Sequence record: LR025197.1
Reading direction: 5' to 3' (one strand)
Length of the DNA: 59,880 nt
From: Escherichia phage vB_Eco_SLUR75
The notes beneath the pieces are model-generated. The model was not told where the DNA came from and did no database searches. It saw nothing but the letters and a program-made list of their open reading frames with translations. Shown here in pieces: positions 2,322 through 28,472 of the stretch. The position numbers and the translations under genes are program-made. Numbering within the stretch: the stretch's first letter is position 1; every line of letters starts with the position of its first letter.

Positions 2322-2587
2322 TTACTGCTCAAGAAGCTCGTGAATTAAGCGATAAGCTGGATATTAGCGAAGATATTGAATTTATCAGTGACAGCATTCG
2401 CGTAGCTGCTACAAAGGGATACAATAAAGTATCACTGGTAACCAAATACGGCGCTGTTGGCAATCCTGACACTCAAGACCCGACCACTATGAAGATTGCT
2501 AAATGGTTAGCTGATTCTGGTTTTACGGTGTTATATTATCCTTCAATGGACCAACGTGATAACGAGCGTACTGAGGTAGCATGGTGA
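2318..2587 (+). CDS. Hypothetical protein (89 aa)
   Basis: ATGA overlap with the upstream stop (translational coupling). Confidence 0.5.
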   Translation: MITAQEARELSDKLDISEDIEFISDSIRVAATKGYNKVSLVTKYGAVGNPDTQDPTTMKIAKWLADSGFTVLYYPSMDQRDNERTEVAW

Positions 2588-2654
2588 TTGAAGAAAATAT
2601 CAAATATTGGAAAGGCTTTATTGACGAAATGTTGAAACCATTGGAGAAGAAATA

Positions 2655-3047
2655 ATGCTATTAGTCGTCACCGGAGGTCGAGATTTTAAGCATGTGGAGT
2701 ATATTTATGCTCAATTGGATAAGCTGCATATGCAAAGAAGGATAACCACACTTCGCCACGGTGACGCTGACGGTGTTGACCGCATTTGCGCACAGTGGGC
2801 AGAGCGCAACGGTATTAAGACAGAAGCGTTCCCTGCCCCGTGGGACAATCTTTCCTTACCAAATACCAAGATACGGTATAACGCCAAGGGTGCTTATAAT
2901 GCACAAGCTGGCGCATACCGTAACCAATTAATGCTGAATACTGATCCTAAACCAGATCACGCTATTGTGTTTCCTGGCGGAGCTGGTACTATGGATATGT
3001 ACAGACGGATTAAAGCATCCGGTATTCCTTATACTTTAGCGGAGTAA
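2655..3047 (+). CDS. SLOG/LOG-like Rossmann-fold protein (130 aa)
   Basis: VVTGGRD near N-terminus, HGDADGVD, and VFPGGAGTMD resembling the LOG-family PGGxGT motif. Confidence 0.4.
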   Translation: MLLVVTGGRDFKHVEYIYAQLDKLHMQRRITTLRHGDADGVDRICAQWAERNGIKTEAFPAPWDNLSLPNTKIRYNAKGAYNAQAGAYRNQLMLNTDPKPDHAIVFPGGAGTMDMYRRIKASGIPYTLAE

Positions 3048-3050
3048 ATA

Positions 3051-3521
3051 ATGGCTGACGTTAAAACTATTGTTGATGCAATGGACGAGTCCAAAGACTG
3101 CCAACTGAAGAAGTCGTTTGAAGTAAAACAGGTTACAGAGACTCAGTTGGTCTGTAATTTTGCGCGTTATTGTGGACTGGGGCGCGGGAAAGACTGGAAC
3201 GGGCTTATTGTTATGCCCACATCGCAGATTCTCGTTTACGTCCGCAATATTGTAGAAGATCTTTTGCGTCTTCAAATAGATATTGGTGACGTAGAAATTA
3301 ACATGACTGCGAGCTCTACCATTGTGGTTAAATGGCAGTCGGGCGAGACACTGCGTTTGGAAGCGTGCCATTGTGCTAAGAGCCTACACCACCTGCGCGG
3401 TTGTCATTACCAGTTCGTTGGGTTTGTACATCCGCAAGGGTTAAGCGAGCGTACGGCGCTTGTAGCGCGTTTGCTGCTGCGTCCTTATAATAACGAGCCG
3501 GAAGTTATATACGAGGCATAA
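3051..3521 (+). CDS. Hypothetical protein (156 aa)
   Basis: ORF packed directly after the upstream gene; no recognisable motif. Confidence 0.5.
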   Translation: MADVKTIVDAMDESKDCQLKKSFEVKQVTETQLVCNFARYCGLGRGKDWNGLIVMPTSQILVYVRNIVEDLLRLQIDIGDVEINMTASSTIVVKWQSGETLRLEACHCAKSLHHLRGCHYQFVGFVHPQGLSERTALVARLLLRPYNNEPEVIYEA

Positions 3522-3522
3522 A

Positions 3523-3948
3523 ATGTCAGTAAATTTTGTCAAACAGCCAACTTTAAATACATGCGTTTCTGCGTGTTTGGCAATGATCCTTAATAAACCT
3601 GTCGAAAAGGTCATTGAGGAATTTCATAGTCGTTATTATAACAACTGGGAAATCACTATCAGCGAATATTTGACTAAAAACGGCGTCCCGCATCATTGTT
3701 CAGAAGGTGGTGGGCGTGAAACTTTGCATATGGGAGGTTTGTTCCTGTGCACGGTGCCAAGTCTTAATATTCCTGGCGCATTGCACCAGATTGTGATTGA
3801 TATGACAGATCACAAGTTTATTGTGCATGATCCAATTAAAGGATGGGAAGGTAAAAAGTTCTATGTTGGTCCGGATCAAGATCCTGAAGAGCCTGGAGCT
3901 TTTATCATTCATACTTGGGTCAAAGACGTTGAAATCCTGCCTTATTAA
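3523..3948 (+). CDS. Putative papain-fold cysteine peptidase, C39-like (141 aa)
   Basis: N-terminal QPTLNTCVSACLAMIL resembles the C39 catalytic Cys signature; candidate His in HKFIVHDP. Confidence 0.4.
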   Translation: MSVNFVKQPTLNTCVSACLAMILNKPVEKVIEEFHSRYYNNWEITISEYLTKNGVPHHCSEGGGRETLHMGGLFLCTVPSLNIPGALHQIVIDMTDHKFIVHDPIKGWEGKKFYVGPDQDPEEPGAFIIHTWVKDVEILPY

Positions 3949-4010
3949 TTTTCTTGCTATCACATAACCCTTCATTGTATTGTGTACCCATCGAATAAGA
4001 GGGGTACACA

Positions 4011-4196
4011 ATGACCAAACTATACGCCGGATTGTTTTTATTTGCGACGTTAATGTTCGCTGGGCTTTATACCTATACAGTAGTCGAACAAACTTCCACG
4101 GTTATCCGAATCTTTGCAAGTACAGGGCTTTGCATCTGTCTTATTCTATTTGTTTTATGCATTGTTATTATCCAAGACCAAAGGAAAGTTAAATGA
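4011..4196 (+). CDS. Small membrane protein (61 aa)
   Basis: RBS AAGAGGGG; two predicted TM helices. Confidence 0.5.
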   Translation: MTKLYAGLFLFATLMFAGLYTYTVVEQTSTVIRIFASTGLCICLILFVLCIVIIQDQRKVK

Positions 4197-4657
4197 CCAC
4201 AATTGCGTTCGATGGAAAAGTATTAGCTGCGGACCGTGGAGTTATGCGCGGGGAAGCTGTGACTGCTTATAAGAAAGTTCATAGCGTGAATGGACATCGT
4301 GGACGGTTTTTACTTGGCTTGTGCGGTTTGACGGCATTTACCGATCAGGTGTTGCGTTATTTTAATAGCGCGGAACCTGTTAAGTTCCCTGATATTAAAC
4401 TTTACAGTAAAGATGATGATTACGGGCAAACTTGCGGTCTTGCTGTCACTCCGGAAGGTACTTGCCATTTTATTTATAATGATGGTACTTTGAGCGAGCC
4501 CATGCTGGATGGATGGGGATCTGAGGGTAGCGGTTGTGTGTTTGCCGCTGGTGCATTAGCCGCTGGTGCAAGCGCAAGCGAAGCTATTGAGCTGGCAATT
4601 AAACACACCACATGCGCATTCCTGGGAGTTGATACAATATCATTTGAGGGTTTTTAA
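4193..4657 (+). CDS. HslV/proteasome-beta-like Ntn-hydrolase (154 aa)
   Basis: Begins MTTIAFDGKVLAAD (Thr directly after Met, as in HslV TTIVSV...); Gly/Ala-rich GSEGSGCVFAAGALAAG...EAIELAI resembles the HslV C-terminal region. Confidence 0.45.
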   Translation: MTTIAFDGKVLAADRGVMRGEAVTAYKKVHSVNGHRGRFLLGLCGLTAFTDQVLRYFNSAEPVKFPDIKLYSKDDDYGQTCGLAVTPEGTCHFIYNDGTLSEPMLDGWGSEGSGCVFAAGALAAGASASEAIELAIKHTTCAFLGVDTISFEGF

Positions 4658-4918
4658 ATGACTACATTCAGTCACCTGATCCCACCTGCTTATCATAGTA
4701 AGGTAGTTGACCACGGGACGCATGTTGTAATTGGTGGCGAAATCTTTATCACAGATAACGAGGAAATCGCCATTGCAATTATTGACAGCACTCAGCATGA
4801 CTTTATGGTTATCCTGCAACACGAACCAGATAACTTCACTTTTTACTCCAGCTACGGGGTCGATAAAGGTGGAAAAAGCCTTGTTGCTTTCTACATTAAC
4901 GACTGGTTTGACGGGTAA
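4658..4918 (+). CDS. Hypothetical protein (86 aa)
   Basis: ATG immediately after the upstream stop. Confidence 0.45.
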   Translation: MTTFSHLIPPAYHSKVVDHGTHVVIGGEIFITDNEEIAIAIIDSTQHDFMVILQHEPDNFTFYSSYGVDKGGKSLVAFYINDWFDG

Positions 4919-5000
4919 TCTCCTTAGATCAATTCTTCTTGCGCCGTATCAAGTTTCTCTGTTACCCTTGAGTGGTTCATGTCAAGCGGAGGAACTCGAT

Positions 5001-5438
5001 ATGGCACTTCAACCTCGTGGTATTCGTAATAACAATCCAGGCAATATTCGCTGGGGTGACAATTGGCAGGGCTTAGTTCCTGCTGATAAGCGAACCGATA
5101 AATCTTTTGCGCAATTCACGCAACCGATTTACGGCATTCGTGCGCTAGCGAAAATCCTGACAAACTACACCAAACGTGAAGGCTTGCCCAATGTGGGTAA
5201 GAAAAACATCGACACTGTACGTGAAATTATCGCTCGCTGGGCACCGCCTAACGAAAACGATACGGAAGCGTATATTCGCTCTGTTGCCAAAGCAATTGGT
5301 GTTCAACCTAACGATCCAATTAATGTCTTCGACAAGGCAATTATGTCAGGATTGGTGAAAGCAATCATTCGTCATGAAAATGGCATGATGCCCTATACCG
5401 ATGACGTAATTAACCGCGCTATTGCAATGGTACTTTAA
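5001..5438 (+). CDS. Putative endolysin (145 aa)
   Basis: ATG at M91 of track ORF 4731..5438 with RBS GGAGGAA; sits directly upstream of holin/spanin genes; conserved GIRNNNPGNIRWG motif; followed by a terminator hairpin. Function is by context only. Confidence 0.35.
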   Translation: MALQPRGIRNNNPGNIRWGDNWQGLVPADKRTDKSFAQFTQPIYGIRALAKILTNYTKREGLPNVGKKNIDTVREIIARWAPPNENDTEAYIRSVAKAIGVQPNDPINVFDKAIMSGLVKAIIRHENGMMPYTDDVINRAIAMVL

Positions 5439-5442
5439 CTGA

Positions 5443-5465
5443 CGGGGCGTTAGCCCCTTTTATTT
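5443..5465 (+). terminator. Rho-independent terminator
   Basis: GGGGC-gtta-GCCCC hairpin followed by TTTTATTT. Confidence 0.6.
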
Positions 5466-5474
5466 GGAGGGAAC

Positions 5475-5819
5475 ATGTTCAATTCACCCAACGAACATTG
5501 GGCAGTTCTAGCGGGGTTTGCGTTTATCTCCCTCATTGGGGGAGCTCTCGGTTATGTCATGCGTACAATAGACGCTGGTAAGAAAGTACGGGCAAGCATT
5601 GCATTTCTTGAAGGCTTATCCGCCGCTTTCTTTGGCGTTATAATGTATGCGATCTACAGGGAGTTTAACATCAGCCTTTGGTTCGCTTTTGGCCTTGCTG
5701 GCCTATTTGCTTGGGCAGGTTCACGTGCTACGCTAAAAGCCCTAACGTCGCTTATAGCTTCACGGACAGGGATCAAACTCGATTCAGGGGACTGCAAACA
5801 TGAAAACGATTCTAAATAA
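5475..5819 (+). CDS. Putative holin (114 aa)
   Basis: Three predicted TM segments with a charged C-terminal tail; position in lysis cassette. Confidence 0.5.
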   Translation: MFNSPNEHWAVLAGFAFISLIGGALGYVMRTIDAGKKVRASIAFLEGLSAAFFGVIMYAIYREFNISLWFAFGLAGLFAWAGSRATLKALTSLIASRTGIKLDSGDCKHENDSK

Positions 5820-6276
5820 CTTCTTCAGTTTTATAAAAACTAAACCGCGTCTGTTTATCGAGTATTTGATGATCGGCGCGGTTGTGTTTTTATGCGGGGT
5901 GGCTGCATACTTGTGGTCACAGAACGAGCTCAGCAAAACTAATTTAAATCATGCTGAGCAAAGACTAACCGTTGTAGAACGGGACAATGCAAAGCTGGGC
6001 GAAGCTGTTGTATTTCTTGCATCCCAACGGGAGAAGGATACTGAATCCTATCGAAAATTGGCTTCAGCGATTGAAAGTGAGCAACATAACCACAGGTTGC
6101 TTCAGGACAAATTAAAAGCACTGGAGAAAAGCAATGCCGACGTCAAAGCTTATCTTAATGAGCGTGTTCCTGATGATTTGCGCAGGCTGCTCGACGGAGA
6201 TACAACCTCCACCACAGCCACAGATAGTCAAGATAAAACTTCCGGCTCATCTGTTGGTAGAATGTCGGGAAGTTGA
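5800..6276 (+). CDS. Putative i-spanin, Rz-like (158 aa)
   Basis: N-terminal TM helix LMIGAVVFLCGVAAYLW followed by a coiled-coil periplasmic domain; overlaps the o-spanin gene. Confidence 0.5.
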   Translation: MKTILNNFFSFIKTKPRLFIEYLMIGAVVFLCGVAAYLWSQNELSKTNLNHAEQRLTVVERDNAKLGEAVVFLASQREKDTESYRKLASAIESEQHNHRLLQDKLKALEKSNADVKAYLNERVPDDLRRLLDGDTTSTTATDSQDKTSGSSVGRMSGS

Positions 6277-6439
6277 TAAATATCCTTTGGTTTATACAAG
6301 GGACATTATCCAACGTTTGCAGGATACAGAAACAGCTCTGACTGAATGTAAACTGAGGGTTAAGGAAATCATACGCTATGAAGCTGAAAATGTTTCGCTT
6401 GATTTTGTAGGATCAAGCAATTATATTCAGCCTAAATAG
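6134..6439 (+). CDS. Putative o-spanin lipoprotein, Rz1-like (101 aa)
   Basis: Signal peptide with lipobox-like MICAGCS, proline-rich QPPPQPQ; starts inside the i-spanin gene in another frame. Confidence 0.5.
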   Translation: MPTSKLILMSVFLMICAGCSTEIQPPPQPQIVKIKLPAHLLVECREVDKYPLVYTRDIIQRLQDTETALTECKLRVKEIIRYEAENVSLDFVGSSNYIQPK

Positions 6440-21204: not shown

Positions 21205-21613
21205 GTTGCCGGGCTGGCAGACACGTTTATTAACCACAGTAAAGGAGTTGTCATCGACTCCTTTTTCTTGGGGTGAAAATGATTGCTGCACCTTCGCGGC
21301 TAAATGTGTTGATGCGCAATACGGCACAAATATCTACGAACAAGTTGCTGGAAAATATAGTACCGAGCTTGGAAGTAAAAAGTTCACTATTGAAAGAGTT
21401 GGAACCGCTTACCTTCCATTGTTATTGGATACTTACCTCAGCGAACGAGTTGACAAGAACTATGCGCAAAGAGGCGATGTGGTTACATTTGAGGGAGCAT
21501 TGGGCTTAACTGCTGGCATATTATGGACTGGATATGTATGGGCTATGGGTCCGAACGGTGTGGAAACATTCCCGCTTAATAAGATCAAAATTACGGATAT
21601 TTGGAGGGTCTAA
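21179..21613 (+). CDS. Tail assembly protein with NlpC/P60-like domain, lambda gpK C-terminus-like (144 aa)
   Basis: ATG at M51 of track ORF with RBS GGGGGAG; ENDCCTFAAKC resembles the Cys motif of the lambda K NlpC/P60 domain. Confidence 0.5.
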   Translation: MRQGSPMSKLPGWQTRLLTTVKELSSTPFSWGENDCCTFAAKCVDAQYGTNIYEQVAGKYSTELGSKKFTIERVGTAYLPLLLDTYLSERVDKNYAQRGDVVTFEGALGLTAGILWTGYVWAMGPNGVETFPLNKIKITDIWRV

Positions 21614-24600
21614 TGCCACCAGCAATAATTGGAGCAGCGATAGCTTTAGGTGCGTCAGCTGCTGCTGCGGCTAGTATTATTTCGGCTACTACCGCTCTCG
21701 TTATCGGTATTGCTGCAACCGCGGCAGGTGCTCTTTTGACTAAGACACCAAATATGAACTTTGATGCTTACAAGGGTCAGCAAGAGCGTAAACAGGTTCT
21801 GCGTGCAGCTACAGCGTCACGTTCTGTTGTATATGGCACGACCGTAGCGTCCGGACTATTAGCATTTGCGGAGGAAGAAGCTGGAGATCAAGATGAAGGT
21901 GAATGGATGCATCTTGTTGTCGTTCTTGCCAGTCATAAATTGGAAGGTATTGAAACGATTTGGTTGGGCGATGACGGAATTGATTGGTTTGGTGAAAACG
22001 CTACTTGGGAGTTCCATAACGACCGTCAGACTGTTGACCCATTCATGTTAAAACATTGTCCTTCCTGGAAGGAGGATATGATTGGCAAGGGTATTGCATG
22101 GCTACGTTTAAGCTTAAAGTTTGATGCTGAAAAATTCCCATCCGGTTTGCCAAACGTCAAGGTGTTGAAAAAGGGACGTAGAATTTATGACCCACGTTCC
22201 GGTCAAACTGTCTTTAGCGATAACGCTGCTCTTGTTATTCTTGATTATTTCCGCACGTATTTAAAGCGCAAGGACGAGAATATTAACTGGGACCAATTCA
22301 AGGAAGCTGCTAACATCTGCGATGAGTTTGTTACTAACGCAGATAACACTACGGAAAGACGCTATCGCATTAACGGGGAGTTTGAAGTGGACGAAGCACC
22401 TGCCAAAATCCTTGATGCTATGCTTGAAGCTTGCGGTGGGGAACTAACCTATATTGGCGGTAAGCATGGTCTGTTAGTTGGTGCTTATTACGGCCCAGCC
22501 ACCATGACTTTGGATGAAAGCTGCATTGCTGGGGATATTAAAATAATCCCTGAGACATCTTATAAAGAGCGTACCAATACCATTACAGGTACATTCGTCG
22601 ACCCGAAGCAAACATACGCTGAAGCAGATTTTCCTCCAGTTGTGGTTAAGGAATGGGTGGAAAAAGATGGCGGTGAAATAACGCAAGACATGGATTTCCG
22701 CTTTGTTACAAGTGAATATCAAGCTCAACGTCTTGCTAATATTATTTTACGTCGTAAGCGTGTTGGTCGAACAATTGAAGTTCCGTGTAACATGAAGGGG
22801 TATAAATTCCGCCCAGGCATGTATGTCAACGTAACCATTTCAAACATCGGAATGAAAAACGTTGAGATGCGCGTTACTAAATGGTCATTCGATCCTAAAG
22901 GTGGGATTAATCTTGTCCTTCGTCAAGACTTCCTGGAAATGTGGGACGACGCTATTGGTAAACCAATGGAGCGCCCGGATCTGGTAGACCTTCCGTCTGG
23001 TGCTATTGCTCAACCGCAAAACCTTCAGTATCAGGTATTGCAGATTAGCGATGTTGTGCAGGGTGTTTTAACGTGGAGCAATATTGGGCAGGTAGCATAT
23101 AACCGCGTAGCCGTGCGACAGGGAGGTACAACGGTTTGGACCGCACAAGTCCCTGGCCAAAACGTTCGCGTTACTGGGTTGCTGCGGGGCGCGTATACAG
23201 CGCATGTTCAAGCGGTAGCTTATAGCGGGGCAGTATCGCCGGAAGCATATCTGGAATTCAATATTCAAGCACCACCTCCGCCAACTTCTGTTGAAGTGCA
23301 ACAGGGTTACTTTGCTATAAGTTTGATCCCAAAATCTGCGGATATTGCAAACGTTAGCACGCAGTATGATTTCTGGACTTCCGGTGAAACAAGATTGTCT
23401 TCCGTGTCTACAGACATTGTAGAACGCGAAGCAACTCGTAAAGGTATGGGTACAACTTGGACGTCGGAAGGGTTGAAGAATGACCACACTTATTACTGGT
23501 ATGTCCGCACCATTAACGCTTTCGGATCATCTGCATTTGTAGAAGTAGCTGCATTGTGCTTTACAACAGCTACAGATTTGATGCCACAAATTGATTCTGA
23601 ATTCAAGAAGACGGAGACTTATAAAGAGCTCACTACTGAAATCACAGGTGTTAAAGATGGAGTTACTCAGCTTAGCCAAACTGTAGTGCAAACTGAAAAG
23701 CGTTTAAGTCAAAGCGTTAGCAATGTTCAACAAAGCGTTATCACTTTGGATGGTGTTGTTCAGGATCATGGCGTTACCATTAATAAACAAGGACAGCTCA
23801 TCGATGCACAGGGTAAGTTGATTGACACTCAAGGTAAGACTATTGAAACGGTTAGCGCGACCGTGCAGGAGACAAGTAAAGCAGTTGTAGATCTGGAAGG
23901 TAATGTTAACGCTCAATGGGGTGCTAAAGTACAGGTAGATAGTAAAGGGCAAAAATACGTTGCTGGTATGCAGTTAGGTATGGAAGGGTCCGGTGGAGCT
24001 GTTCAGTCTTACTTCATGGTAAGTGCTAACAACTTTGCTATCTATAACCCGACAAATAGCGTAGCAGAACTAGCATTTGCTGTTAAGAACGGTCAAGTGT
24101 TCATGAAGGCTGCGTTTATTGAAAATGGTACTATTGACAGCGCTAAAATTTCAAATCAAATTCAGTCAACAAACTACGCAAACAATAGCGCGGGTTGGAT
24201 GATTAACAAGAATGGTAGCGCTCAGTTTAACAACGTAACGATAAGAGGTACTGTATACGCTAGCAACGGATCTTTCACAGGCACAGTGAACGCAACAAGC
24301 GGTAAATTCAAGGGTACTGTGGAAGCTACCAGTTTTGTGGGTGATGTTGCGAATATGTGTGTCATTGCTGAGTCTGCAATACCAAACACACAAACTACAA
24401 GTTCAAGAACCTGGACAAAAACTTTCAAAGACTCATCTGGTTCAACATTATCTAAAGACTTTGTGTTGCTATTAAGTTATAGTTTAACCGCATATACATC
24501 AAATCAGGCGAGTCGTATAATTGTGACTGCTAACATAGGGGGGACATCAATTACAAGGAGGATTGAGCGAGCTGCCAATGGACCTGCGATGGATGTAACC

Positions 24601-24735
24601 ATACCTTTAGCAGTGAAAGGAAAGACAGCGTCGAGCGTAACAATAAGCGTTAAGGAGGAGTATACGAACGTCTATGGGAGCTACTTGCGCCCATCTGTAA
24701 TATTAATGACTCGCGGAACTGGTAGTTGGTCGTAA
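21613..24735 (+). CDS. Tail tip / central fiber protein, lambda gpJ-like (1040 aa)
   Basis: C-terminal segments align by eye with lambda J ([22 protein letters not shown] vs [41 protein letters not shown] vs YYFYIRSVNTVGKSAFVEA). ATG at M5 of track ORF (track start is TTG). Confidence 0.8.
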   Translation: [1040 protein letters not shown]

Positions 24736-24742
24736 TAAATAA

Positions 24743-24770
24743 TTAACCCCTCAAACGAGGGGTTAATTTT
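24743..24770. terminator. Bidirectional terminator hairpin
   Basis: AACCCCTC-aaac-GAGGGGTT with A-run upstream and T-run downstream; between convergent J-like and lipoprotein genes. Confidence 0.6.
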
Positions 24771-25003
24771 CAATAATCAATCACACAGTTTGAAGGTGAG
24801 CCAATTCGTCGGTATTCGTGATCAATTTCATGACACCATTGCCCAGTCATTGGAAGCTTTTCGGTATCATAAATTAAAGAACCGTTACCATCGCGATCCA
24901 AAGGTTTTGGAACGACGCCGGAATTAGGTTTACCAGTATTTAAACCATTACCACATGCGGTAAGGGACAAACATAATGCCAGCATAATTAGAGCGTGTTT
25001 CAT
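24770..25003 (-). CDS. Small lipoprotein, candidate superinfection-exclusion protein (77 aa)
   Basis: Signal peptide with lipobox LSLTAC|G; sole opposite-strand gene in the tail module, between the J-like and tail fiber genes. Confidence 0.55.
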   Translation of the reverse strand: MKHALIMLALCLSLTACGNGLNTGKPNSGVVPKPLDRDGNGSLIYDTEKLPMTGQWCHEIDHEYRRIGSPSNCVIDY

Positions 25004-25085
25004 CGGGACTCCTTTGTGTTGTTGTCAAGGTTCAATTTTAATATACTTGTTGTGTTGAGTAAGTCAAATAAATGTGGGAGATATT

Positions 25086-28000
25086 ATGGCAACTCGTTTA
25101 CGTGGTACTTTAGTTGATGGTTTGAATAAGCCTATTATCAACGCTACAGTTGCGCTTTTAGCTAAAGGAAACAGTCTTACCGTATTATCCGGCAGCGAAG
25201 CTATCTTTAAAACAAGTGCAACCGGAACTTATGATATTACAGTCCAGACAGGTTATTACAAGGTTATTATCGGTCCACAGGGCGTAGAGCCATATAAAGC
25301 TGGTGAAATTGCTATTTACGCGGATAGTAAAGAAGGTACGCTGAATAACTATTTAACTACATGGGCACCGGAAGAGCTAACTCCGGAAGTTATTACTCAG
25401 GTAAAAGATTTGGTTGCACAAGCTGAGACAGCTAAGAACGCTTCATCCACGTCTGCTACTAAATCCGAACAGGAGCGAGTTAAAGCAGAAGCTGCTGCTA
25501 AAAAAGCGGAAGACACTGCTAATGGTATGAAAGCCTCTATTGGCTTAACTACTGCCCCAAGACATGTTGCAAATATTACAGTAGAACCTACAGCATTCTT
25601 AGGCTTCATACGAATTGTACGATCTACCACAGTCGGTTATCCAGATATAGCTTCATCAGAAAACGTATTGGCTGGTTTTATTTCTGCTATGGACGGAACC
25701 CCTGGATATGTCGGGGTATTTGTTGGTGACTTCACCGGAACTGTATACACTTATCGTTGGACTAAGAATGTTGGCGCGGTATGGTGGAAACAAGTTAACT
25801 ACTCTACTGTCAACAGATATACCCAGCTTAACGCAGAAACTAATTTTACAAACCAATTGGGTAACGCCAAACTTCTTATTGACAATAATAAAGTTTGGGG
25901 TGCTTATGATAACGACAATAAACGCTATATACCCCTTGCAATAGCTCAGGGTGGTACTGGCGCGGTAAATGTTAATGATGCTTTGGAAAACTTTGGGTTA
26001 GGTCGTAACTCCGCGCCACGTTTCAAACATCTTGATCTGGACAATGCATCAAATTCTACACAAGCAGCTTCTGGAATTCTAAACGGCTACCTCCGTGATT
26101 CTAGCGGTGTGCAAAGAACTAAGCATAGATTATATTCAGAAATTAAAAGCGATGGGAAAGCGTGGTTAACCATGCAGATCTATTCTGATGAATCTACGCA
26201 GAAGACTTTAGGTTATAACATTGACGGCGATTTCCAAATTGTACGTAATTTTATCGGGCAGTCCTTACAATTATCGGATTTAACCACAACTCATAAAAAT
26301 CTACAGATTGATAGATTTAAGCAGTTGTCCGCTGGAACAAGGGTCTACGGAGGTCCAGCCGATGAGCGATATTTTGAAGTTCATACCGGGGCCTGGGGTG
26401 TTTATAACGTAACAGAAAAGAAATGGATACCTTTAGCCATATCACAAGGTGGGACGGGAGCTGTTACAGTTGCGGACGCCAAGAAGAACCTTTTAATCCC
26501 GGACGGAGGTCTTGATTCGGCTACCCGTGTGGATAAACCCGCTGGAGCGGAAGATGCTAAGTATTATCCAATCATTATTAGCCAACCTAGCGGGTATGAT
26601 GGCACGTACCTAACAGAAATTGAAATGAGCACTCCCAGCAGAAGTGCTGCACAAAGTCCTAACTCTAACATCTTAAGAGCTTGGATTCGAAGCGCTGGAT
26701 GGAGCGATAAAGGTACTGTTGGCTTTGGGAATTTCTTTGCTTATGATAGTAAAGAGGTTGCAATTTTATGTATACGTGGCACATCTAGAGGTCAATATCC
26801 TCATAATGCTGTTTACGTAAAGGGCGATGCTTTCCCTGTTTATATTAGGAAGACTGTTGGATCCACAATTACAGTTCCCACTTCTGACTGGTCTGCAGAT
26901 CCAAATGCGTCAGATAAGTGTGTTTATAAATGGGGCATCACAGGCGATTTAGATGGTATTGGTGATGAATATGGGTGTCGAAATATACTAAACTTTGTCA
27001 AAGGTTTGAACGGATTTTATTGTAACGACTATTTCCGTGATGCTGGAGGGAATGCTTATCTTAAGGATGGGATGAATTATGGAGGTGATATAAAATTACA
27101 ACTCCGTAAATTGGAAATAAACGGTAATCTTACCGCAGGGAACGCTATAACTGCTTTCGGTCCTACTGTAGCAAATAATACATTTGTATCACAGTTAACA
27201 AATGCGGATTCTAGTCAAGCATTGCATCAAAGCGAGTTTAGAGCTGGGGAAAGCGGTGGGCAAATTGTTGTTCGGGATATGTCAGCAGTAGCCAATCATA
27301 AATTCTTTAACTTTAATCTAGACGGAAGCTTCAGTCCGCCAAACGGATTATTGTCTTCTACTGGTGTGGATTGGAACAGTCAAATTAATACCGTCAATAA
27401 GTTCTATGGAATTGCCGGACAAGTTAACTCAGCAGAAAACAATGTTGTTTACGGGGGCATTCACGTAGGTTTTAGCGGTAATTATGCATTTCAACTAGCT
27501 GGTAGAAATAACAAAGCAAGTTTTCGTACATTTGAAGCAGGCACACCTGGACCTTGGATGCGTCTTATTACTGATCAGTATGCAGACTTCAAAGTACCAA
27601 TTTTTGCTAACAAGAATGGTGAAGCTATAACCATTAAATCGACAGTAGATGACAACTCTGAATCTGGATATATCGCTGGGAGGAATAACGCTAATACCCG
27701 TTTGTGGTATATAGGGAAGTCCGGACCTCAAGAAACTGTGGTTATCCGTAATGATATGAATGGAAACCAAATACTCTTAAGGGACGGTGCAGGCGATATA
27801 AGCTTGGATACAAAAGACGGGAACAAAGTTGTATTTGCAAAAGCTTCCAACTTTAGACTTGTTAATAGTAATGGAAAATATACAAGGTTAGTAACATCAG
27901 GAAGTTCAACTCATGCAATTAGCATGGACAACTGGGGTACAAGCGCAAGACCTACTGTGTTCGAATGTAAGTATGAAGACTATAGCACTTCTGCTAACGT

Positions 28001-28472
28001 TGGTTGGATATACTACGGTCAGGTAAATACAGATGGAAGCCGAACATTTCAGGTAAACGGAACTGTCGGTTGTACTAGTGTTGTTCAAAGCTCAGACCGA
28101 GATCTTAAAGACAACATTAAGACTATTGCAGATGCAACTAAAGCATTGCGTAAAATGAATGGCTACACATATACTCTCAAGGAAGATGGTTTACCCTATG
28201 CTGGTGTAATCGCTCAAGAAGTTATGGAAGCTCTACCTGAAGCGGTTAGCAGTTTCACAAAGCATGAGTATATGGAAGGCCAAGATGGAGAAGGTAATGA
28301 TACAAGATATGATCTTGGAAAACGTTATCTTAATGTAGACTACTCCGCGGTAACTGGTCTTCTGGTTCAGGTTTGTCGTGAAGCAGATGACCGCATTACA
28401 AAACTTGAAACTGAAGTTGAGGAACTCAAAAAATTAGTTGCAACACTTGTTAATAAAGAACCACTACCATAA
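25086..28472 (+). CDS. Tail fiber with C-terminal intramolecular chaperone, peptidase S74-like (1128 aa)
   Basis: C-terminal SDRDLKDNIKTI...GYTYTLKEDG...YAGVIAQEV matches the self-cleaving chaperone motif; internal duplicated IPLAI(A/S)QGGTGAV motif. ATG at M5 of track ORF (track start 25074 is GTG). Confidence 0.8.
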   Translation: MATRLRGTLVDGLNKPIINATVALLAKGNSLTVLSGSEAIFKTSATGTYDITVQTGYYKVIIGPQGVEPYKAGEIAIYADSKEGTLNNYLTTWAPEELTPEVITQVKDLVAQAETAKNASSTSATKSEQERVKAEAAAKKAEDTANGMKASIGLTTAPRHVANITVEPTAFLGFIRIVRSTTVGYPDIASSENVLAGFISAMDGTPGYVGVFVGDFTGTVYTYRWTKNVGAVWWKQVNYSTVNRYTQLNAETNFTNQLGNAKLLIDNNKVWGAYDNDNKRYIPLAIAQGGTGAVNVNDALENFGLGRNSAPRFKHLDLDNASNSTQAASGILNGYLRDSSGVQRTKHRLYSEIKSDGKAWLTMQIYSDESTQKTLGYNIDGDFQIVRNFIGQSLQLSDLTTTHKNLQIDRFKQLSAGTRVYGGPADERYFEVHTGAWGVYNVTEKKWIPLAISQGGTGAVTVADAKKNLLIPDGGLDSATRVDKPAGAEDAKYYPIIISQPSGYDGTYLTEIEMSTPSRSAAQSPNSNILRAWIRSAGWSDKGTVGFGNFFAYDSKEVAILCIRGTSRGQYPHNAVYVKGDAFPVYIRKTVGSTITVPTSDWSADPNASDKCVYKWGITGDLDGIGDEYGCRNILNFVKGLNGFYCNDYFRDAGGNAYLKDGMNYGGDIKLQLRKLEINGNLTAGNAITAFGPTVANNTFVSQLTNADSSQALHQSEFRAGESGGQIVVRDMSAVANHKFFNFNLDGSFSPPNGLLSSTGVDWNSQINTVNKFYGIAGQVNSAENNVVYGGIHVGFSGNYAFQLAGRNNKASFRTFEAGTPGPWMRLITDQYADFKVPIFANKNGEAITIKSTVDDNSESGYIAGRNNANTRLWYIGKSGPQETVVIRNDMNGNQILLRDGAGDISLDTKDGNKVVFAKASNFRLVNSNGKYTRLVTSGSSTHAISMDNWGTSARPTVFECKYEDYSTSANVGWIYYGQVNTDGSRTFQVNGTVGCTSVVQSSDRDLKDNIKTIADATKALRKMNGYTYTLKEDGLPYAGVIAQEVMEALPEAVSSFTKHEYMEGQDGEGNDTRYDLGKRYLNVDYSAVTGLLVQVCREADDRITKLETEVEELKKLVATLVNKEPLP

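What the first reader, a model, noticed from the sequence alone, without database searches (positions are those of the whole stretch)
24743..25003. Opposite-strand lipoprotein between the J-like tail tip and tail fiber genes
The only reverse-strand gene in the structural module encodes a 77-aa lipoprotein (lipobox LSLTAC) bounded by terminator hairpins. This position and orientation mirror receptor-blocking superinfection-exclusion lipoproteins of other siphophages, such as T5 Llp next to its receptor-binding protein gene.
Basis: partly seen in the sequence, partly recalled or inferred. Interest (0 to 1): 0.65.

Follow-up and report, generated by a model that had tools for sequence, protein, structure and literature searches.

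The report
LamB-linked superinfection-exclusion lipoprotein gene
A small gene sitting backwards next to the phage's receptor-binding tail-tip gene encodes an outer-membrane lipoprotein of a family already shown, in a related phage, to make E. coli immune to phages that enter through the maltose porin LamB; it is a correct but largely already-explained observation.

Summary
The ORF is real: window 24770..25003 (-), 77 aa, signal peptide plus lipobox L-T-A-C (Cys17). It has its own sigma-70-like promoter and Shine-Dalgarno site, and shares one strong bidirectional hairpin (24741-24768) with the converging J gene. Only that hairpin exists; the 5' side holds a promoter, not a terminator.

The window is a Seuratvirus (Queuovirinae) coliphage. 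Near-identical relatives (WildeMaa, SeppeHuegi, GottfriedDienst) need LamB.

The protein belongs to a tiny enterobacterial-phage family (PHROG 12984). In at least five phage lineages and in E. coli prophages the gene lies immediately 3' of gpJ and convergent with it. It is 54% identical to Lpp010 (mEp010 gp116), which on plasmid expression excluded LamB-dependent phages, including lambda (PMC11893012).

dN/dS of the mature part is 0.02-0.07. The lipoprotein stays 83-90% identical while the J receptor-binding end drops to about 19%, so it tracks the receptor rather than the RBD. The LptD-using Seuratvirus VogelGryff lacks it.

It is not a sequence relative of T5 Llp or Cor, only an analogue. 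How it acts on LamB is unknown. Verdict: new member of a known kind, moderate-low interest.

The parts
21613..24735 (+). J-like tail tip / central tail fibre gene (1040 aa). Its last ~125 aa (24358-24732) are the fused receptor-binding domain ('type 1').
   Evidence: ORF and ATG. 92-97% DNA identity to the J genes of WildeMaa, Seurat and CAjan. The C-terminal 130 aa are 97-100% identical in the LamB-dependent BASEL phages WildeMaa, SeppeHuegi and GottfriedDienst. The J of LptD-using VogelGryff ends before this domain.
24741..24768 (.). Bidirectional intrinsic-terminator hairpin shared by J (+) and the lipoprotein gene (-): AATTAACCCCTC-aaac-GAGGGGTTAATT, with T-rich tails on both strands.
   Evidence: Folding: -17.6 and -19.8 kcal/mol, z -6.6 and -5.0, 0 of 200 shuffles as stable. 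The Seurat record annotates the same element as 'bidirectional terminator between end of gene and end of apparent moron'.
24770..25003 (-). Lipoprotein gene, 77-aa precursor. Signal peptide: residues 1-16. Lipobox LTAC: 24953-24964. Mature lipoprotein: 61 aa from Cys17 (24773-24955), 6.7 kDa, pI 5.5, with conserved Cys57 and Cys73.
   Evidence: PHROG 12984 'lipoprotein', E 1e-56. Alignment A1: invariant C17, P26-N-S-G-V30, T47-E48 and G54; near-invariant C57 and C73. dN/dS 0.02-0.18 in the mature part across seven homologues. 54% identical to the experimentally tested Lpp010.
25009..25015 (-). Shine-Dalgarno AAAGGAG, 5 nt upstream of the ATG.
   Evidence: Sequence. Conserved in Seurat, KurtStettler, 9g and Dru_SM1. 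Annotated as an RBS in Seurat.
25040..25067 (-). Sigma-70-like promoter TTGACT-16 nt-TATATT driving the lipoprotein gene independently of the + strand late operon.
   Evidence: 10 of 12 consensus matches. Both hexamers are identical in Seurat, KurtStettler and Dru_SM1; the -35 differs in 9g. Function is inferred, not shown.
25086..28472 (+). Lateral tail fibre gene (1128 aa), which resumes the + strand structural operon.
   Evidence: Same length as WildeMaa bas23_0022, 'lateral tail fiber protein'.

Best explanation
The ORF is an autonomous 'moron-like' cassette (own promoter, SD site and terminator) encoding a 6.7-kDa lipoprotein.

Proposed pathway:
1. After Sec export, the protein is lipidated at Cys17 and its signal peptide is cleaved by signal peptidase II.
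2. Because residue +2 is Gly and not Asp, Lol sorts it to the inner leaflet of the outer membrane. It faces the periplasm on a short Gly/Asn-rich tether, with a Cys57-Cys73 disulfide.
3. There it acts on the phage's own terminal receptor, the maltoporin LamB. Cells expressing it can then no longer be productively infected by phages that enter through LamB.

Biological role: for this virulent Seuratvirus the gain is lytic conversion. Progeny are not wasted on already-infected cells or on LamB-bearing debris, and competing LamB phages are shut out. The same cassette in temperate phages and prophages gives lysogens immunity to LamB phages.

Status of each step:
- Shown here: gene anatomy, strong purifying selection, family membership, invariant synteny with gpJ, and association with LamB-using phages.
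- Shown in the literature for a 54%-identical homologue: exclusion of LamB-dependent phages, including lambda.
- Inferred: lipidation and outer-membrane sorting, the disulfide, direct binding to LamB, the step blocked, and expression timing.
For: 1. Homology to a tested protein. BLASTP against mEp010_116 (Lpp010) gives 54% identity over residues 5-77, E 2e-31; tblastn gives E 2e-21. The locus tag confirms the hit is gp116. Lpp010 expression excluded LamB-dependent mEp010, mEp044, mEp554 and lambda. Those phages fail on a lamB knockout (PMC11893012).

2. Receptor of close relatives. The window's J 3' end plus lipoprotein is 92-95% identical in DNA to WildeMaa, SeppeHuegi and GottfriedDienst. 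Their terminal receptor is LamB (S5 Table of PMC8594841). KurtStettler (LamB) also carries the lipoprotein, at 83% identity. VogelGryff (LptD) has a shorter J, a different reverse-strand 321-aa gene and no homologue.

3. Synteny. In all 13 related loci inspected, the gene is immediately 3' of gpJ and convergent with it. Of these, 11 are phages: Seurat, KurtStettler, WildeMaa, Dru_SM1 and STP-SP5 (Seuratvirus); 9g (Nonagvirus); HH3 (Dhillonvirus); AS5 (Drexlerviridae); mEp010 and mEp013 (mEpimmI); and MagusPhagus. The other 2 are E. coli prophages.

4. Co-occurrence. All 31 phage records with the window-type J C-terminus carry the lipoprotein. So do 10 of the 12 records with at least 58% identity to the KurtStettler-type C-terminus.

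5. It tracks the receptor, not the RBD. Lipoprotein identity to the window is 83-90% in KurtStettler, Dru_SM1 and 9g, while the last 125 aa of their J are only 18-19% identical. Lpp010 also excludes lambda, whose J terminus is not detectably similar. Both facts point to a host target.

6. Constraint. dN/dS is 0.02-0.07 in the mature part (0.18 against Seurat, which differs at only 5 sites), and the signal peptide is freer.

7. Precedents. Llp-FhuA (PMC9586334) and Rtp45-LptD (bioRxiv 10.1101/2025.07.07.663478) are periplasmic lipoproteins of about 6 kDa with one disulfide. They are encoded at the RBP locus and disable the receptor from the periplasmic side.
Against: - No experiment exists for this protein or for any Seuratvirus copy.
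- No family member has been shown to bind LamB or to block adsorption. The published evidence is spot and EOP exclusion only.
- Lpp010 did not exclude LamB-dependent mEp013, so exclusion is not simply 'LamB is closed'.
- HK97 uses LamB (PMC6832061) and has a J terminus 92% identical to KurtStettler's, yet lacks the gene. The cassette is therefore dispensable.
- LamB has no plug and no TonB coupling, so the Llp mechanism cannot be transferred directly.
- Both AlphaFold2 models are poor (pLDDT 61-62). No fold evidence is available.
- LamB dependence of the window phage itself is inferred from relatives.
Confidence: 0.72

Rival explanations
1. Same family and same target pathway, but the block comes after adsorption. 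Phages still bind LamB. The lipoprotein prevents the next step, such as triggering of the tail tip, outer-membrane penetration or DNA ejection. It would be an ejection blocker rather than a receptor masker.
For: E. coli Nissle 1917 carries an intact 77-aa homologue, with about 89% DNA identity over the locus, next to the J gene of a defective lambdoid prophage. Nissle is fully lambda-resistant although lambda binds its LamB. [quoted passage not shown] Lpp010 excludes some LamB phages but not mEp013. That is easier to explain by a step specific to the phage's tip than by simple closure of LamB.
Against: It is unknown whether the Nissle copy is expressed or contributes to resistance. Binding in that study was scored by PCR on pellets, and reversible binding may persist. 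Both structurally solved analogues (Llp, Rtp45) abolish RBP binding. For a virulent phage, protecting progeny from debris requires a block of irreversible adsorption.
Confidence: 0.2
2. A host-fitness moron unrelated to phage exclusion. Examples would be a lipoprotein that changes envelope properties or maltodextrin uptake, or an analogue of lambda Bor/Lom, kept next to J merely because that is a permissive insertion site.
For: The Seurat record calls it an 'apparent moron'. It has its own promoter and terminator. It also occurs in prophages of commensal E. coli. There is no Pfam or PDB match to suggest a biochemical function.
Against: A homologue has a direct exclusion phenotype that follows LamB dependence. 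The gene is kept in strictly virulent phages, where host-fitness morons bring little benefit. It co-occurs with LamB-type J termini and is replaced by other genes in LptD-type or unknown-receptor relatives.
Confidence: 0.05
3. It is the outer-membrane spanin (Rz1-like o-spanin) or another lysis lipoprotein.
For: It is a small outer-membrane lipoprotein. There is a weak PHROG hit to an 'Rz-like spanin' (E 0.12), restricted to the signal peptide.
Against: The phage has a complete lysis cassette 18 kb away:
- endolysin-like gene, 4731-5438;
- holin, 5475-5819;
- i-spanin, 5800-6276;
- an overlapping 101-aa o-spanin, 6134-6439, with lipobox ICAGC and a Pro-rich mature N-terminus.

The target has no partner i-spanin, is not Pro-rich and is on the opposite strand.
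Confidence: 0.02

Closest known systems
Lpp010 (gp116, 'type-C lipoprotein') of temperate coliphage mEp010 and its mEpimmI relatives (Negrete-Mendez et al. 2025, PMC11893012); PHROG 12984
   Same: True homologue: 54% identity over the whole mature protein. It shares the conserved PNSGV, DTEKLP-TGQWC and RRIGSPSNC motifs and the two Cys residues. It occupies the same position, convergent with and immediately 3' of gpJ, with a terminator in between. The host phages need LamB.
   Different: The mEp copies have a different N-terminal tether (AVDKEAALHNL versus GNGLNTGK) and a 5-residue longer precursor. A co-oriented 39-42-aa ORF lies upstream that the window lacks. They sit in temperate phages with a different J terminus ('type 2'). 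The window copy is in a virulent dpreQ0-modifying Seuratvirus and is untested.
T5 Llp (lytic conversion lipoprotein; PDB 8A60, 7QJF)
   Same: Works alike in outline. Both are 77-aa precursors with the lipidated Cys at position 17 and a ~61-aa mature periplasmic outer-membrane lipoprotein with two further Cys. Both are encoded next to the receptor-binding function and are present in a virulent siphovirus.
   Different: No sequence similarity outside the signal peptide. phmmer and profile searches of the PDB miss Llp, and hhalign aligns residues 1-20 only. Llp targets the TonB-dependent transporter FhuA by jamming its plug. LamB has no plug. In T5 the RBP is a separate protein (pb5); here the RBD is fused to J.
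Cor (HK022, phi80, T1, N15) FhuA-directed exclusion lipoproteins
   Same: HK022 Cor is also a 77-aa precursor with Cys17 and two further Cys. It is a moron in the tail region of siphoviruses and is annotated as phage exclusion.
   Different: hhalign aligns only residues 1-27, which are the signal peptide and tether. The mature domains are unrelated. The target is FhuA. In HK022, cor lies ~1 kb downstream of J and is co-oriented with it.
Rtp45 / SE_Oeko, the LptD-directed exclusion lipoproteins of small siphophages (bioRxiv 10.1101/2025.07.07.663478)
   Same: They occupy the same genomic slot, the 'bona fide RBP locus' downstream of gpJ in small coliphage siphoviruses. They are periplasmic lipoproteins of ~6 kDa with one disulfide. 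Their target is a beta-barrel that is not a TonB-dependent transporter, so action is by direct steric displacement of loops rather than plug allostery. This is the best mechanistic model for a LamB-directed protein.
   Different: No sequence match: the PDB profile search found nothing, although I did not verify that Rtp45 is in that PDB copy. The target is LptDE. It is accompanied by a separate RBP gene.

Membership tests
Lpp010 / PHROG 12984 LamB-associated exclusion lipoproteins | Significant sequence homology across the mature domain | tested here: met
   PHROG 12984: E 1.3e-56, residues 1-77 of 77. BLASTP to mEp010_116: 54% identity, E 2e-31, residues 5-77. Conserved motifs in alignment A1.
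Lpp010 / PHROG 12984 LamB-associated exclusion lipoproteins | Lipoprotein signal peptide with lipobox and invariant Cys | tested here: met
   L14-T15-A16-C17. Cys17 is invariant in 29 sequences. It passes a strict lipobox filter. Actual lipidation cannot be tested here.
Lpp010 / PHROG 12984 LamB-associated exclusion lipoproteins | Gene immediately 3' of gpJ and convergent with it, within the structural cluster | tested here: met
   Window and 13 related loci.
Lpp010 / PHROG 12984 LamB-associated exclusion lipoproteins | The carrying phage uses LamB as terminal receptor | tested here: inconclusive
   Not measurable for the window phage. Relatives with 97-100% identical J C-terminal 130 aa (WildeMaa, SeppeHuegi, GottfriedDienst) are LamB-dependent. 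All members with a known receptor use LamB.
Lpp010 / PHROG 12984 LamB-associated exclusion lipoproteins | Expression excludes LamB-dependent phages | not testable with these tools
   Shown only for Lpp010 (PMC11893012).
T5 Llp family | Sequence or profile similarity to Llp | tested here: not met
   Llp is present in the PDB copy (8a60_B, 7qjf_A). It is not hit by phmmer or by the A1 profile at E <= 10. hhalign aligns the signal peptide only.
T5 Llp family | Structural similarity to Llp | tested here: inconclusive
   The AF2 models have pLDDT 61-62. Foldseek against the PDB gives nothing below E = 4. The models are too poor to decide.
T5 Llp family | Targets FhuA | not testable with these tools
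   Indirect evidence points to LamB instead.
Cor family | Sequence or profile similarity to Cor | tested here: not met
   hhalign of A1 against HK022 Cor aligns residues 1-27 only, i.e. the signal peptide and tether. No Cor-annotated PHROG appears among the hits at E <= 1.
Spanin (o-spanin, Rz1-like) | Embedded in, overlapping or adjacent to an i-spanin gene in the lysis cassette, with a Pro-rich mature part | tested here: not met
   The i-spanin (5800-6276) and an overlapping o-spanin (6134-6439) lie 18 kb away. The target is not Pro-rich and has no i-spanin neighbour.

The most novel reading that the evidence does not exclude
This family could be the first example of a phage lipoprotein that disables a plain, plug-less diffusion porin (LamB) from the periplasm. 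It may do so by a mode different from Llp (plug jamming) and Rtp45 (loop displacement in LptD). One possibility is a post-adsorption block of tail-tip triggering or DNA ejection.

Its intact homologue in the defective lambdoid prophage of probiotic E. coli Nissle 1917 could be the still-unidentified factor that makes that strain refractory to lambda although lambda binds its LamB.
Probability: 0.3. Interest if true: 0.6.

Novelty: new member of a known kind. Interest (0 to 1): 0.3.

Why it matters
The gene itself is not a surprise. Relatives annotate it as 'lipoprotein' or 'apparent moron'. The gpJ-downstream slot is the published home of exclusion factors. A homologue has an exclusion phenotype.

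What remains of value:
1. The comparison links the mEpimmI 'type-C Lpp' to one compact family. That family spans virulent Seuratvirus, Nonagvirus, Dhillonvirus and Drexlerviridae phages and E. coli prophages. Its distribution follows LamB use rather than the sequence of the receptor-binding domain. This makes it a usable in-silico marker for LamB tropism and for cross-exclusion in phage cocktails.
2. The way a 6.7-kDa periplasmic lipoprotein shuts a plug-less porin to phages is structurally unsolved and now easy to test.
3. The Nissle 1917 copy offers a concrete candidate for an open observation about that probiotic's lambda resistance.

Tried and rejected
- Second hairpin on the 5' side: searched by inverted-repeat scan, terminator scan and folding of both strands. 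Nothing beyond chance. Rejected.
- Pfam: only a sub-threshold match of the signal peptide to LptM_cons (E 0.14). Uninformative.
- PDB by sequence and by profile: only chance hits.
- Exhaustive profile search of 1.84 billion representatives. Only three genuine clusters were found. Two further hits (P0030, P0031) are giant or repetitive adhesin-like and MORN-like proteins matched in repeats. I treat these as compositional or repeat artefacts, so no deeper relatives were found.
- AlphaFold2 on the full precursor and on the mature part, with 28-29 homologues: pLDDT 61-62. Foldseek against the PDB found nothing. No structural inference was drawn.
- Homology of the J terminal domain to the lambda J LamB-binding end. 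BLAST similarity stops ~90 aa before the end. hhalign of the terminal domains gives E 0.18. The LamB assignment therefore rests on experiments with relatives, not on similarity to lambda J.
- Strict co-inheritance of RBD and lipoprotein: rejected. At least four C-terminal RBD sequence types accompany the lipoprotein: window type, KurtStettler/HK97 type, AS5 type and STP-SP5 type. HK97 has the RBD without the lipoprotein.
- Spanin, Cor and Llp membership: tested and rejected.

Full report
**What is there.**
The window is a near-complete Seuratvirus (Queuovirinae) coliphage genome. The 2-kb stretch around the finding is 88-94% identical in DNA to WildeMaa, OddieOddie, KS_A8, slur01 and Seurat, and its first 1.4-1.55 kb is 94-97% identical to CAjan, SeppeHuegi and SHIN8.

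The ORF at 24770..25003 on the minus strand encodes 77 aa, MKHALIMLALCLSLTACGNGLNTGKPNSGVVPKPLDRDGNGSLIYDTEKLPMTGQWCHEIDHEYRRIGSPSNCVIDY. It has a lipoprotein signal: Lys2, a hydrophobic core, lipobox L14-T15-A16-C17, and Gly at +2. By the E. coli +2 rule (established knowledge), Gly at +2 predicts Lol-dependent sorting to the outer membrane. The mature protein is 61 aa, 6.7 kDa, pI 5.5.

The gene lies between J (ATG 21613..24735, +) and the lateral tail fibre gene (ATG 25086..28472, +).

**Regulatory anatomy.**
- Between the J stop and the lipoprotein stop lies a perfect 12-bp hairpin (24741-24768). It is highly stable on both strands: z = -6.6 and -5.0, with 0 of 200 shuffles as stable.
- The Seurat record annotates the same element as a 'bidirectional terminator between end of gene and end of apparent moron'.
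- The 82 nt on the gene's 5' side fold no better than shuffles. They carry a sigma-70-like promoter TTGACT-16-TATATT (25067..25040, minus strand; 10 of 12 matches) and the SD site AAAGGAG (25009-25015).
- Both signals are conserved in Seurat, KurtStettler and Dru_SM1, and largely in 9g.
- The claim 'bounded by terminator hairpins' is therefore half right. The unit is promoter, SD, ORF and a shared terminator, which is a classic autonomous moron layout.
- In WildeMaa every gene from the small terminase to the end of the tail-fibre block is on the + strand except the homologue bas23_0021. The window's own ORF map agrees.

**Is it a real gene?**
Nei-Gojobori comparison with seven homologues gives dN/dS of 0.06-0.11 overall and 0.02-0.07 in the mature part. 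Only the Seurat pair, which differs at just 5 sites, is higher (0.18). dS reaches about 1.2 in the mature part, and the signal peptide is much freer. Under a strict lipobox filter it is the only hit in all six frames of the window. It is a protein-coding gene under strong constraint.

**Family.**
- There is no Pfam domain.
- PHROG 12984, 'lipoprotein', matches end to end at E 1e-56.
- The 5.8-billion-protein search returned only 28 clusters of 61-104 aa, all from Escherichia or Salmonella phages, prophages or metagenomes.
- An exhaustive HMM search of 1.84 billion representatives added one more genuine cluster. It also returned two repeat-protein artefacts.
- The alignment shows invariant Cys17, P26-N-S-G-V30, T47-E48 and G54. 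Near-invariant positions include D46, L50-P51, T53, Q55-W56-C57, E59, R66, G68 and N72-C73.
- The two extra cysteines suggest a periplasmic disulfide. This is an inference.

**Distribution and synteny.**
tblastn finds the protein in 43 of 50,697 phage records:
- Seuratvirus;
- Nonagvirus 9g;
- Dhillonvirus (HH3, PNS1, Maverick, CS16, EP23);
- a Drexlerviridae phage of Enterobacter (AS5);
- Cronobacter phage CSP1 and Salmonella phage STP-SP5;
- the temperate mEpimmI phages mEp010, mEp013, mEp044 and mEp554, plus MagusPhagus.

It is also present in 34 of 5,426 complete E. coli genomes, inside prophages. In every locus inspected the gene is immediately 3' of gpJ and convergent with it.

**Link to the receptor.**
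- Maffei et al. list LamB as the terminal receptor of GottfriedDienst, KurtStettler, WildeMaa and SeppeHuegi, and LptD for VogelGryff (S5 Table of PMC8594841).
- The four LamB phages all carry the lipoprotein.
- VogelGryff has a J of 879 aa that stops before the terminal domain. A 321-aa reverse-strand gene occupies the slot, and there is no homologue.
- The window's J C-terminal 130 aa are 97-100% identical to those of WildeMaa, SeppeHuegi and GottfriedDienst. All 31 records carrying that domain also carry the lipoprotein.
- A second C-terminal type is found in KurtStettler, Dru_SM1, 9g, CSP1, the mEp phages and HK97 (92% identity). It accompanies the lipoprotein in 10 of 12 records. HK97, which adsorbs to LamB (PMC6832061), is the exception. 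Its 207-bp J-stf gap has no remnant of the gene.
- AS5 and STP-SP5 carry yet other terminal variants.
- All these J termini align as one domain family, from 'A.SF[IV]GD[IV]AN' to 'G[ST]GS[WF][ST]'. The last 125 aa of type-2 proteins are only 17-20% identical to the window's, while the lipoproteins remain 83-90% identical.
- The lipoprotein therefore follows the receptor and not the RBD sequence. This is what is expected if its target is a conserved host component.

**Functional evidence from the literature.**
The mEp010 homologue is locus tag mEp010_116, i.e. gp116 or 'Lpp010', the 'type-C lipoprotein' of Negrete-Mendez et al. 2025. It is 54% identical to the window protein (E 2e-31). In that paper:
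- mEp010, mEp013, mEp044 and mEp554 failed to plate on a lamB knockout.
- Plasmid expression of Lpp010 excluded mEp010, mEp044, mEp554 and, unexpectedly, lambda, but not mEp013.
- The type-A lipoprotein of the OmpA-dependent phages excluded only those phages.

**Mechanism.**
The best-supported reading is a LamB-directed exclusion lipoprotein, anchored in the inner leaflet of the outer membrane. It would work in outline like Llp on FhuA or Rtp45 on LptD.

Rtp45 is the better model. It acts on a barrel that is not TonB-dependent, by sterically displacing loops. The Llp plug-jamming mechanism cannot apply to plug-less LamB.

None of the following has been shown for any family member:
- that the protein binds LamB;
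- which step it blocks;
- when it is expressed.

The failure of Lpp010 to exclude mEp013 keeps a post-adsorption block open as a rival. So does the observation that E. coli Nissle 1917, which carries an intact homologue, binds lambda via LamB yet is not infected.

**What it is not.**
- Not Llp. Llp is in the PDB copy but is missed by sequence and profile searches. hhalign aligns only the signal peptide.
- Not Cor. hhalign against HK022 Cor covers residues 1-27 only.
- Not the o-spanin. The lysis cassette is at 4731-6439, with endolysin, holin, i-spanin (5800-6276) and an overlapping Pro-rich o-spanin (6134-6439).
- Structure prediction failed (pLDDT 61-62), and fold searches were empty.

Llp, HK022 Cor and this protein are all 77-aa precursors with the lipidated Cys at position 17 and two further cysteines. 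I read this as a convergent format.

**Verdict.**
The residual interest lies in the unsolved mechanism on LamB and in the Nissle 1917 lead.

Noticed in passing
L013 4035..4268 (-) = NZ_CP022686.1 430269..430502; prophage context in L018: E. coli Nissle 1917 carries an intact 77-aa homologue (WP_021567253.1), convergent with the J gene of a ~44-kb defective lambdoid prophage between yecD and yecN. The prophage has portal and gpT pseudogenes and a LexA-family repressor. Bury et al. 2018 (PMC5987069) found Nissle fully lambda-resistant although lambda binds its LamB. They postulated an unidentified prophage factor blocking DNA entry and never mention a lipoprotein. This gene is a candidate.
   Followed up: partly
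window 4731-6439 (+): Lysis cassette: endolysin-like gene 4731-5438, holin 5475-5819, i-spanin 5800-6276, and an overlapping 101-aa o-spanin 6134-6439. The o-spanin has lipobox ICAGC and a Pro-rich mature N-terminus. It is not annotated in the Seurat record, whose sequence ends inside this cassette.
   Followed up: partly
L015 (HK97, NC_002167.1) 2501-3085: The HK97 J C-terminal 125 aa are 92% identical to those of the virulent Seuratvirus KurtStettler, with 97% DNA identity running up to the J stop. Homology then ends abruptly. HK97 has a 207-bp gap and no lipoprotein. This indicates a sharp recombination boundary at the J stop/terminator, shared between temperate and virulent phages.
   Followed up: partly
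L016 (JenK1, NC_029021.1) 2945..3235 (-): In Nonagvirus JenK1 (terminal receptor unknown per PMC8594841), the same slot holds a 96-aa reverse-strand gene. It encodes a Gly-rich secreted protein with a signal peptidase I-type signal (AYA|T), no lipobox and two C-terminal Cys. It may be a non-lipoprotein exclusion factor for an unidentified receptor.
   Followed up: no
L006 (VogelGryff, MZ501110.1) 3828..4793 (-): In the LptD-using Seuratvirus VogelGryff, J is truncated before the terminal domain. A 321-aa reverse-strand gene occupies the slot and is presumably the separate LptD-binding RBP. No small lipoprotein gene is annotated next to it.
   Followed up: no
L010 2111..2239, L004 2725..2844, L009 2321..2437, L005 1522..1959: In mEp010, mEp013, MagusPhagus and AS5, one to three tiny co-oriented ORFs (29-59 aa) lie just upstream of the lipoprotein gene. 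The window and other Queuovirinae lack them. Their function is unknown.
   Followed up: no
L019 + L020 (Salmonella phage STP-SP5, OR498732.1; record ends): The STP-SP5 record is cut inside J, so J is unannotated. The reconstructed J has a further, distinct C-terminal ~110 aa (…KIEGDVCAIW…ANDRFFS) next to a lipoprotein that is 77% identical. The receptor is untested. If the lipoprotein marks LamB use, this would be another LamB-binding domain type.
   Followed up: partly
P0019 (74 aa; 29 contigs including a 5.1-Mb E. coli chromosome): A variant of the lipoprotein in E. coli genomes diverges after residue ~54 (…PMTGSGVTRLITNTDESVALLTVL). This looks like a frameshift that removes both conserved cysteines, so it is probably an inactivated prophage copy.
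   Followed up: no
P0030 (4467 aa), P0031 (704 aa): The family profile (positions ~27-64, DGxGxLxxDTEKL…) weakly matches repeated units in a giant CshA/SdrD-type adhesin and in a MORN-variant-like repeat protein (E 1e-10 and 2e-4). This is probably a repeat or compositional artefact. It could hint that the core is a beta-hairpin repeat-like motif.
   Followed up: partly
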